From: Podarcis muralis
Taxonomy: Eukaryota
Direction of reading: 5' to 3'
Length of the DNA stretch: 64,000 nt
Assembly: GCF_964188315.1 (NCBI RefSeq)
Contig: NC_135669.1
Location: 35,278,001-35,342,000 of the forward strand
How positions within the stretch are numbered: the stretch's first letter is position 1; each line of letters starts with the position of its first letter. Below, piece after piece: positions 24,086 through 61,015 of the stretch. The translations under genes were made by a program, and so were the position numbers. The notes beneath the pieces were generated by a model. It was not told where the DNA came from. It did not search any database and saw nothing but the letters and a program-made list of their open reading frames with translations.

Positions 24086-52920
<28,835 letters not shown>

Positions 52921-57154: not shown

Positions 57155-57483
57155 TGGCATGTCATGCTTCAATGTCTTTCACTTCAGTGAGTGTGGCATG
57201 ACAAAGTCCTCGGTAGACAATGTTGCAACTTGCCCATCTCTTCCACACAGGCATTCCCCAATAACTCAGCCATGAAAATAGCAGGGAAGAACTGTATGCT
57301 GGCAGAGCACTCCCCTCCCCTTCACTCCCACGATTTCCCAAGTGAATGGGGCTGCAAACAAATTATTTCCAGAATCAACTCAACGTGGAAGCAAGTGCCA
57401 AACGTCCAATATATTGTGCTAGATTTCTGGAAGTAGCTTCTACACGTTGTGACACCCCAAATATAATGTGAAAGCCAAATGTG

Positions 57484-58083
57484 TGTGCTGGTCCCTGGGG
57501 CTAACCAAGAGGTGAGGTCCGAGTCCAGTCCGAGGTCGAGGATCCGGTATGGAGGCTGTCCATCAAAGGCGAGGCGGGGTCCAAGGCAGGGAGTCGGGTG
57601 AGGTCAGGAACTCTGGTAGAAGAACAGGACAGGGTGCAGGCAGGAACAGGCTACCAACAATGTTGCTCCCACAACCTGGGACTGGGGCTGACTGGCTTTT
57701 ATCTGCCCCGAGGCATAAGGCGGCCCCAGTCCACAGGTGACTCGCCTCTCCTGGCCTGGAGGCGAGCACTCCTCCTGCAGGAACTTAGTTCCCTCCGCCT
57801 CTCTGCCCTTAGCCTCTGCAGCTCAGGAGAGGCTGGAGGGTTACCAGACCCAGAGGCAACCTCCTCCTCCCCTGACGGGGCTGAGCGTGGAGCACCTGCA
57901 GGCAATGGGTCCTCCATCACCTCAGGGGCCAGAGCAGACTCAGCTGGTGCCTGCACCTGAGGATCCAGCACAGGTGAGGACCCTTCAGGCTCATGCCCAA
58001 GCCCCAGCTCAGCTGGTTCTGGAGGCGGGGACTCCTGTGCAGGCTGGGATTTAGCCTCTGAGTCTGAATCCCAGGCCATCACA
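57484..58083 (-). mobile_element. Solo LTR 1 (600 bp, probably Gypsy-type)
   Basis: Minus strand TGTGATGG...CCAGCACA (7/8 terminal inverted repeat), TATA-like GATAAAA at about 57697-57703, imperfect TSD ATGTG/CCGTG. Confidence 0.72.
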
Positions 58084-60178: not shown

Positions 60179-60934
60179 TGTCAGAGACTGCCTCCAGGTC
60201 CCAGCTCACAGAAGACCAACGCTAGCCGGCAGAACTGTACAAAAGTCTTTATTGAAGTTTAGTTTCCATTTTCAAGCTCTAGCGTGCGTCTCTACGTCTA
60301 GACCCTAGACCAGCGTAGCCTCGTCTGAGTCTCCGCCCCCTGTACACCAGTTTAAGACTCTAGCCTTACTCCACCTTCTTCGTTTCTCCTTCCGCCTCTG
60401 GGTCCTACTACCCCCCGGGGTGCCTTCCTTCCTGGACGCCTCGGATGCGGACCCCTCGGACTCCTCCCCCTCTCTTCGGCGGGCTTTGGGACCCGGCTCC
60501 CTCTCCGGGCTGCTCATTGCGCCACCCTCTTGTACATTTGAACTTGGCGCGCGCGCGCTGCCCCTGACCTTCCTTTTGACCGTTTCCTCGCTCTCTGATG
60601 CAGGCGTGGCTAACCCTGACTCATGTCCTTCCGCTGACGGAAAGCTGCCTGCTGCCGATGCTGGGACTCCTCCCCCCTACTGCTCTCTGGTGGGGAAGCT
60701 GGTCCCGATTTCCAGCTGCTGCTCTCTGAGTCCCCTCTGGCCCCTCCTTCCTGAGGTGTTCCCTCTGGCAACCCCCTAGCTCTGACCACGGGAGCCCCTT
60801 TCTGTGAATCCTCTGATTCGCTGGAGAGACTTAGAGACCTCGGACGGCTATCATCGCTGACCTCTCCCTCGGATTCCTCTCCCTCGGTCTCTAAATCCTC
60901 CCTTTCCTGTCCCTCTGCTCCTGAACCCCTGACA
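60179..60934 (-). mobile_element. Solo LTR 2 (756 bp)
   Basis: TGTCAG...CTGACA termini, exact 5-bp TSD GCAGG at 60174-60178 and 60935-60939, minus-strand AATAAA at 60248-60253. Confidence 0.9.
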
Positions 60935-61015
60935 GCAGGGTTTAAAGGATGTGCAACAAAGAAGTATAATGCAACCGTTGTGCTAGCAAAAGCTTCTTGT
61001 ACAACAACTGGTTCT

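What the first reader, a model, noticed from the sequence alone, without database searches (positions are those of the whole stretch)
60305..60933. Solo LTR 2 carries a ~209-codon reading frame starting at LTR base 2, broken by one homopolymer slip
Seen: on the minus strand the frame is open from LTR base 2 (VRGSGAEGQEREDLETEGEESEGEVSDDSRPRSLSLSSESEDS...). A second frame opens just before the G6 run (+ strand C6 at 60672-60677) and runs to TAG at 60305 (...SRTQRRKEKRRRWSKARVLNWCTGGGDSDEATLV*). Adding one G joins them into 210 codons: an acidic Ser/Glu-rich disordered N-terminus and an Arg/Lys-rich, NLS-like C-terminus. Established: retroviral nef and MMTV sag overlap U3. Inference: this may be the U3-overlapping end of an accessory gene of an unannotated squamate LTR retroelement. 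Caveat: GC- and purine-rich DNA is poor in stop codons.
Basis: partly seen in the sequence, partly recalled or inferred. Interest (0 to 1): 0.72.

Follow-up and report, generated by a model that had tools for sequence, protein, structure and literature searches.

The report
Lizard retrotransposon integrase tail inside LTR
This frame is a broken leftover copy of the last 209 codons of a lizard retrotransposon's pol gene, which in intact elements runs on through most of the end repeat and is kept by selection, likely as a floppy tail that brings the integrase into the nucleus and steers it to chosen chromatin.

Summary
The frame is real, but it is the tail of pol, not a separate nef-like gene. 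The 756-bp solo LTR (60179-60934, minus strand, 5-bp TSD) belongs to a young, self-priming Ty3/Gypsy chromovirus clade with 5,085 LTR starts in this genome. In full-length copies one 1,543-codon frame (PR-RT-RH-IN-chromodomain) runs through the PPT and all of U3 and stops about 20 nt into R. Across subfamilies up to 39% diverged, U3 lengths differ only by whole codons and omega is 0.35. The window copy's break is private and lies at 60661-60663, not at the G6 run. Plant CRM elements are the precedent. Three extras matter. One nested subfamily (T) has U3 out of register with pol at 26 of 27 junctions, yet omega is 0.52, so it may make the U3 protein separately or by recoding. Insertions crowd chromosome ends (33 of 76 within 1 Mb; 2 expected). 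The tail upstream of the LTR carries a conserved FxGF motif resembling LEDGF-binding motifs (binding untested). A second, distant family has the same layout.

The parts
60179..60934 (-). Solo LTR, 756 bp, of a young Ty3/Gypsy chromovirus (subfamily A here)
   Evidence: TG..CA ends and TSD; 40 copies at 99-100% identity, the window's own included; full-length element L031
60174..60178 (.). Target-site duplication, left copy (GCAGG)
   Evidence: 63 of 63 solo LTRs with a detected duplication have 5 bp
60935..60939 (.). Target-site duplication, right copy (GCAGG)
60664..60933 (-). First part of the U3-coded pol tail (acidic, Ser/Gly-rich); this frame runs on out of register to a stop at 60610-60612
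   Evidence: composition
60661..60663 (-). Private one-base gap that breaks the frame in this copy
   Evidence: 61 of 61 siblings are longer here; G6 run at 60672-60677 has the same length in all copies
60305..60660 (-). Second part of the U3-coded pol tail with its TAG stop (60305-60307)
60308..60406 (-). Basic cluster and conserved end motif (R/K-rich, then WSK..LNWC..DSD); NLS-like, and overlapping the core promoter
   Evidence: conserved in 17 subfamily representatives; last 30 codons dN/dS 0.18; NLS role inferred
60351..60356 (-). TATA-like CTTAAA, 30 nt before the inferred start of R, inside the Leu-Asn codons
   Evidence: position; promoter role inferred
60316..60326 (-). Self-primer sequence at the inferred 5' end of the RNA (U3/R boundary)
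   Evidence: complementary to the 11 nt behind the 5' LTR in 48 of 60 elements at 11/11, with compensatory changes between subfamilies
60248..60253 (-). AATAAA polyadenylation signal, about 50 nt after the stop

Best explanation
The frame is the last 209 codons of the pol gene of a young Tf1/sushi-type Ty3/Gypsy retrotransposon, left stranded and broken in a solo LTR; in intact elements pol reads through the polypurine tract and all of U3, and the product is likely a disordered integrase tail that would carry the nuclear-import signal and help choose target chromatin. Shown: the continuous frame, its conservation and the private break. Inferred steps: the RNA starts at the self-primer, so only the 3' copy of U3 is transcribed and translated; Gag-Pol is likely made by a -1 shift at a G_GGA_AAC site with a downstream stem; integrase then ends in a degenerate chromodomain, an FxGF-bearing acidic motif, a linker and the U3-coded acidic-then-basic tail. 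The solo LTR in the window has no PPT, no start codon at the head of the frame and its U3 lies upstream of its own promoter, so it most likely makes no such protein.
For: L031 has gag (400 codons stop to stop) and one 1,543-codon frame ending at the same TAG with RVP_2, RVT_1, RT_RNaseH, Integrase_H2C2, rve and SH3_Tf2-1 in Gypsy order. About 60 of 103 scored copies lie in stop-free frames of 1,540 codons or more (hand count). 66 of 79 non-T 3' junctions are in register. U3 frame lengths of 209, 211, 216, 218, 222, 223, 225, 231 and 232 codons end in the same motif. Modal interval lengths between DNA anchors differ only by multiples of 3 inside the frame (2 of 6 intervals vary) but by 1-2 bases at or after the stop (3 of 4 intervals). 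Third codon positions differ twice as often as first or second (0.376 vs 0.169, 0.194). NG86 dN/dS 0.25 (bootstrap 0.19-0.31), shifted sense frames 1.60 and 1.00. ML omega 0.35, 2dlnL 175 against omega 1. The same method gives 1.5 on a neutrally decaying LTR family. A distant family in this genome also reads through its PPT for 102-116 codons (8 of 12 loci; 1 more shifts after 3 codons, 1 stops earlier, 2 not scored by the motif) with omega 0.40. UniRef Podarcis muralis pol proteins include the whole tail (P0002). [quoted passage not shown]
Against: No protein-level evidence exists. RNA reads cover the element thinly in both orientations and are deepest on the LTR, as expected from passive transcription of many solo LTRs. 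The 17 representatives for omega were chosen for an open frame, and part of the conserved end overlaps the TATA-like box and self-primer, so some constraint is at DNA level. Subfamily T appears to have amplified with pol stopping 9 codons into the LTR, so the fused tail is not required by every lineage. The tail has no Pfam match and its function is inferred by analogy. 13 of 79 non-T junctions are out of register and 17 of 70 pattern-sampled LTRs are broken before codon 200.
Confidence: 0.84

Rival explanations
1. U3 encodes a separate accessory protein, made from the ATG inside the PPT on a spliced or internally started RNA or by reinitiation; fusion to pol is secondary.
For: An in-frame ATG with G at -3 and +4 lies 5 nt before the LTR. 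In subfamily T, 26 of 27 junctions are out of register (25 by the same -1), against 13 of 79 elsewhere (Fisher p 5e-14), yet T-only omega is 0.52 (2dlnL 32; shifted frames 1.6, 1.1) and shared variants favour third positions (47%, p 3e-5). A GTAAG follows the 5' LTR.
Against: T is nested among in-register subfamilies in the integrase tree (100/100), so fusion is the older state. The distant family has GTG at the same place. A T-like protein from an unnamed contig is in frame (P0006). No GT-AG joint in 4 raw RNA runs, 6-12% of each read. Shared versus singleton contrast within T is not significant (p 0.08 and 0.19). GTAAG is explained by the self-priming site.
Confidence: 0.08
2. The tail is translated but is only tolerated read-through; selection keeps it stop-free (for example to keep the 3' UTR short) and the amino acids do not matter.
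For: Low complexity, predicted coil (pLDDT 46, weak); T does without the fusion.
Against: Amino-acid changes, not only stops, are depleted (omega 0.32-0.35); 56 of 192 gap-free columns are invariant; charge layout and a basic..LLCW/LNWC end recur in a distant family.
Confidence: 0.05
3. The open frame is a by-product of purine-rich promoter DNA, or the shadow of a selected antisense frame.
For: Only 75 T in 630 bases; an antisense frame of 156 codons is open in the window and has apparent dN/dS 0.32.
Against: Codon-position bias and frame-keeping length changes; a neutral copy stays stop-free at 15-20% divergence with probability 0.01-0.03 before indels; the antisense frame shares third positions with the sense frame, has stops in 4 of 17 representatives and is split in two in L031.
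Confidence: 0.03

Closest known systems
Tf1/sushi-group chromoviruses of fungi and vertebrates (Ty3/Gypsy)
   Same: Domain order, separate gag and pol frames, chromodomain after integrase, self-priming instead of a tRNA primer (PMC6317226 passages), TGTCAG start matching the Sushi TGTYANR motif (PMC3601003 passages), 5-bp TSD.
   Different: About 350 residues follow the chromodomain, 209-232 of them coded inside the LTR. The chromodomain lacks the aromatic cage residues of HP1. No RT tree with Sushi-ichi was built.
Plant CRM group A centromeric retrotransposons (CR motif); Beetle7 and Bingo of beet
   Same: The polyprotein frame extends into the 3' LTR and the LTR-coded part is the proposed targeting domain (PMC3059260, PMC3605345 passages); skewed chromosomal distribution.
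   Different: CRM uses tRNA-Met and has the CR motif in place of a chromodomain; here a chromodomain is kept upstream, the LTR-coded part spans all of U3, and the bias is to both chromosome ends. Likely convergent.
Ty1 and Ty5 integrase C-terminal targeting regions
   Same: Long disordered integrase tail with NLS, CK2-type sites and short targeting motif (PMC9673352); Ty5 is steered to telomeric silent chromatin through Sir4 (PMC4700185).
   Different: Copia elements with integrase in the middle of pol; the tail is not LTR-coded; no sequence similarity tested or claimed.
Retroviral nef and MMTV sag (recalled, no call)
   Same: Coding sequence overlapping U3.
   Different: Those are separate genes on spliced RNAs of env-bearing retroviruses; this element has no env and the frame is fused to pol in most subfamilies.
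TND-interacting motifs (TIM/IBM) of MLL1, JPO2, IWS1
   Same: Hydrophobic helix, S/T- or acid-rich linker, then FxGF followed by acidic residues, just after the chromodomain (definition PMC9987994, PMC8022399 passages).
   Different: In the window's family the linker is S/T-rich and lacks D/ExE before FxGF; the distant family fits better and has two copies. Binding is untested. The motif lies upstream of the LTR.

Membership tests
Ty3/Gypsy LTR retrotransposon | pol order PR-RT-RH-IN | tested here: met
   Pfam on L031
Ty3/Gypsy LTR retrotransposon | Ty3-type gag, paired LTRs TG..CA, short TSD, no env | tested here: met
   Ty3_capsid and Retrotrans_gag; LTR pairs and TSDs; gag and pol fill the 5.0-kb interior
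Tf1/sushi chromovirus | Chromodomain at the integrase C-terminus | tested here: met
   PF00385 E 1e-4, 22.5 bits, under the 25.1 cut-off; relatives P0008, P0010, P0011 pass it; the 14 best PDB matches are all chromodomains, best E 0.022
Tf1/sushi chromovirus | Self-priming: PBS pairs with the first 11 nt of the RNA | tested here: met
   48 of 60 at 11/11, 54 of 60 at >=10, with compensatory changes; the RNA start itself was not mapped
Tf1/sushi chromovirus | RT groups with Sushi-ichi/Tf1 in a phylogeny | not tested
   No reference RT sequences were in hand
Type I chromodomain (H3K9me reader) | Three aromatic cage residues | tested here: not met
   In the alignment to CBX5 the W of LKWKG is R and the following aromatic is T; cage positions recalled
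Plant CRM group A | [quoted passage not shown] | tested here: met
Plant CRM group A | tRNA-Met PBS | tested here: not met
   PBS is self-complementary to R
Plant CRM group A | CR motif | not tested
   No CR-motif profile was run; the tail has no Pfam match
Retroviral U3 accessory gene (nef/sag type) | Separate frame, not fused to pol | tested here: not met
   In register at 66 of 79 non-T junctions, including the window's subfamily; met only in T
Retroviral U3 accessory gene (nef/sag type) | Own spliced or subgenomic mRNA | tested here: inconclusive
   No GT-AG joint, but interior depth was mostly under 10 reads per orientation and tissue is unknown
TND-interacting motif (LEDGF/HRP2 type) | Helix, 8-16-residue acidic or S/T linker, FxGF | tested here: inconclusive
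   F-x-G-F invariant in 8 of 8 aligned copies with an 8-residue S/T-rich linker after WLF, omega 0.12; acidic linkers in the distant family; a short motif can arise by chance
TND-interacting motif (LEDGF/HRP2 type) | Binds the IBD/TND | not tested
   No complex model or binding data

The most novel reading that the evidence does not exclude
Lizard chromoviruses write a chromatin-targeting protein module into their own promoter: the tail mimics host LEDGF/HRP2 partners and steers integration to telomere-proximal chromatin, and one lineage has uncoupled the U3 part from pol and makes it by a second recoding event or from the PPT start codon, an accessory gene caught in the act of being born.
Probability: 0.22. 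Interest if true: 0.82.

Novelty: new variant of a known kind. Interest (0 to 1): 0.56.

Why it matters
Pol running into the 3' LTR is described for plant centromeric chromoviruses, where it is tied to targeting; my searches found no such report for vertebrates (also 30, 48, 49, 91, 116, 117; Repbase and subscription journals not searchable). Here an apparently active vertebrate family, with dozens of intact copies, keeps a 200-codon protein across its whole promoter region and piles up at chromosome ends. The vertebrate telomere-associated example named in PMC10088271 (passages) is non-LTR. That makes integration targeting in a vertebrate Gypsy element directly testable, and subfamily T offers a natural case of a pol tail becoming a separate frame. 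The window copy itself is an ordinary dead solo LTR.

Tried and rejected
Homopolymer slip at G6: rejected. Antisense frame: rejected as shadow. Single-sequence fold of the tail: pLDDT 46, even the chromodomain misfolded, so uninformative beyond coil; no fold search run. Atlas: best score 0.80, chromodomain clusters, below the lead threshold. Complex prediction of the FxGF region with lizard LEDGF IBD: tool not available, no verdict. No indexed holder was on record as RNA; X1 may be DNA and was not used as evidence. Splice joints: none GT-AG. Pfam on the U3 peptides: nothing. Earlier findings of the scan: none. Tesina 2015 not held; no supplements read. Discarded outputs: 'open' values (off by one base); chromodomain and linker rows (two frameshifted rows, L016 and L116; redone); iqtree values unparsed. 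Rows dropped: 7 of 70 LTRs without a detected end and 4 duplicates; 62 of 93 T LTRs collapsed or excluded before the site counts. A full-length element for the window's other solo LTR was not found among 150 best hits. Range outside Podarcis is unresolved: all named hits with the tail were Podarcis.

Full report
Observation. The window holds a 756-bp solo LTR at 60179-60934 (minus strand) with TG..CA ends and a 5-bp TSD. On this copy alone the join is not far beyond chance (1-4% of shuffles). The break is misplaced: all 61 copies at >=95% identity have the same length across the G6 run, and the window copy is one base shorter than 61 of 61 siblings at 60661-60663. It also differs from at least 90% of siblings at four other positions, so it is a young, individually decayed insertion; an assembly error at the gap was not excluded. 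The host is a lacertid, likely Podarcis muralis (a host LEDGF exon is 100% identical to its protein).

What it belongs to. The own-genome search gave 40 near-identical LTRs, several in pairs 5.8 kb apart. Element L031 has gag and a single 1,543-codon frame with protease, RT, RNase H, integrase and SH3 domains, then a degenerate chromodomain. About 60 of 103 scored copies lie in stop-free frames of at least 1,540 codons (hand count; the search favours intact copies). LTR pairs of two A elements are 99.6-99.7% identical. A 22-base pattern counts 5,085 LTR starts in the genome, control 0. The 11 nt behind the 5' LTR pair with a site 147-149 nt before the LTR end in 48 of 60 elements, and both sides change together between subfamilies. 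That is the self-priming signature of the Tf1/sushi group (PMC6317226, passages) and places the inferred RNA start at 60326. The frame therefore covers all of U3 and about seven codons of R, and ends about 50 nt before AATAAA. A G_GGA_AAC heptamer in gag phase with a 10-bp stem behind it suggests -1 shifting for Gag-Pol (likeness to PEG10 recalled).

Is the U3 frame selected? Seventy LTRs taken by the start pattern alone fall into subfamilies up to 39% apart (60 aligned). 53 of 70 are open for 200 codons or more. Lengths vary from 209 to 232 codons with the same end motif. Between DNA anchors, modal lengths differ by multiples of three inside the frame and by one or two bases after the stop. 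In 17 open representatives, third positions differ twice as often as the others, NG86 dN/dS is 0.25 with all 136 pairs below 1 and ML omega is 0.35. Enzymatic domains are at 0.05-0.08 (NG86), chromodomain 0.11, FxGF region 0.12, rest of the linker 0.46 (ML). As a control, 15 copies of the window's other LTR family give omega 1.5. Caveats: representatives were chosen for openness, and the last codons overlap the TATA-like box and self-primer.

Generality. A profile of chromodomain plus linker found a distant family (P0010, P0011). In this genome it also reads through a PPT into a TGTCAG LTR for 102-116 codons, ends in a basic stretch and LLCW, and has omega 0.40. Its LTR start was inferred from the PPT and TG. 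Named homologues are Podarcis UniRef or NCBI proteins labelled 'Gypsy retrotransposon integrase-like' or 'chromo domain-containing', so automated annotation already includes the tail without comment.

The exception. Of 106 distinct 3' junctions, 66 of 79 outside subfamily T are in register but only 1 of 27 in T. In T, pol stops 9 codons into the LTR (also in UniRef P0004), two arrangements of the PPT G runs give the same register in 17 and 8 copies, and some copies have otherwise unbroken pol frames of 1,308-1,331 codons. T is one clade nested among in-register subfamilies. Its U3 frame is open for 200 codons or more at 24 of 27 junctions and has omega 0.52. All 22 distinct T junctions examined keep G_GGG_GGA in pol phase just before the only upstream ATG of the U3 frame; this is not a canonical slippery site. 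Slippage, initiation at that ATG, or hidden in-register parents could each explain it. Against a simple reading: a T-like protein from an unnamed contig is in frame (P0006), and shared versus singleton variants in T differ only weakly. RNA reads showed no splice joint, at low depth. This stays unexplained.

Where it inserts. From 90 best-hit loci (30 each), merged to 76 independent insertions, 33 lie within 1 Mb and 14 within 100 kb of a contig end (2.0 and 0.2 expected). Both ends are used. 13 of 20 fetched ends carry telomeric arrays and 15 of 20 hold element DNA, often abutting the array (several ends were picked after seeing hits, so this is not a random sample). 26 LTR starts lie in the first 200 kb of C1 against a mean of 3.3 per Mb. 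The other LTR family has 0 of 40 near ends, though it is older. More than half of insertions are interstitial, like the window copy. Targeting and slower removal at ends are not separated by these data. C20 is also enriched (20 of 103, 2 expected), as a W chromosome would be (inference).

Mechanism. Shown: a selected, pol-fused, U3-coded tail with an acidic start (16 D/E in 60 residues), a Ser/Gly-rich middle, a basic end (15 K/R in 59) and 11 CK2-type sites. Inferred: nuclear import by the basic end and chromatin choice by short motifs, as for Ty1 and Ty5 integrase (PMC9673352, PMC4700185, passages) and CRM (PMC3059260, PMC3605345, passages), perhaps standing in for a chromodomain that lacks its cage. 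The FxGF motif resembles LEDGF/HRP2-binding motifs (PMC9987994, PMC8022399, PMC11910589, PMC10854676, passages); LEDGF tethering would favour transcribed genes rather than telomeres, so the two leads do not yet fit together. I put the targeting or import role at about even odds.

Verdict. A new vertebrate variant of a known design. All papers were seen as search listings or passages only.

Noticed in passing
window 57482-58083 (minus strand; ends approximate): The window's other solo LTR also has a frame from LTR base 2: 130 codons in 15 of 21 copies scored, acidic then basic, with an ATG at codon 2 and an RRSARL motif (likeness to the HMGN nucleosome-binding core is recalled). No full-length element among 150 best hits; omega 1.5 among copies.
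   Followed up: partly
L031:5826-5957; L285-L295: Conserved WLF..FxGF.SxEE motif after the chromodomain; the distant family has two tandem copies with acidic linkers, close to the LEDGF IBD-binding consensus.
   Followed up: partly
L211-L230; L014, L153, L156, L157, L225: Elements sit in or directly beside (TTAGGG)n arrays, nest in each other, and some end-proximal insertions are duplicated between chromosome ends.
   Followed up: partly
G000:C20: Strong enrichment of both families on this 30-Mb contig (20 of 103; 54 of 90), suggesting a W chromosome.
   Followed up: no
window 51661-52920 (+): A 419-codon exon that looks like the last exon of AUTS2 (name recalled; no Pfam hit). The LTR lies about 7 kb downstream on the opposite strand and about 2 kb before a GC-rich stretch at 63-64 kb.
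   Followed up: no
L031:2373-2445: G_GGA_AAC heptamer in gag phase with a predicted 10-bp stem, the likely gag-pol -1 frameshift signal.
   Followed up: partly
L016, L065, L189, L191, L185: Independent insertions share near-identical flanks (CATACGCTTCAGGTT or its complement), hinting at a favoured site in another repeat.
   Followed up: no
window 6947-46990 (many copies): Abundant dispersed repeats typical of squamate SINEs and short inverted-repeat elements (names not tested).
   Followed up: no
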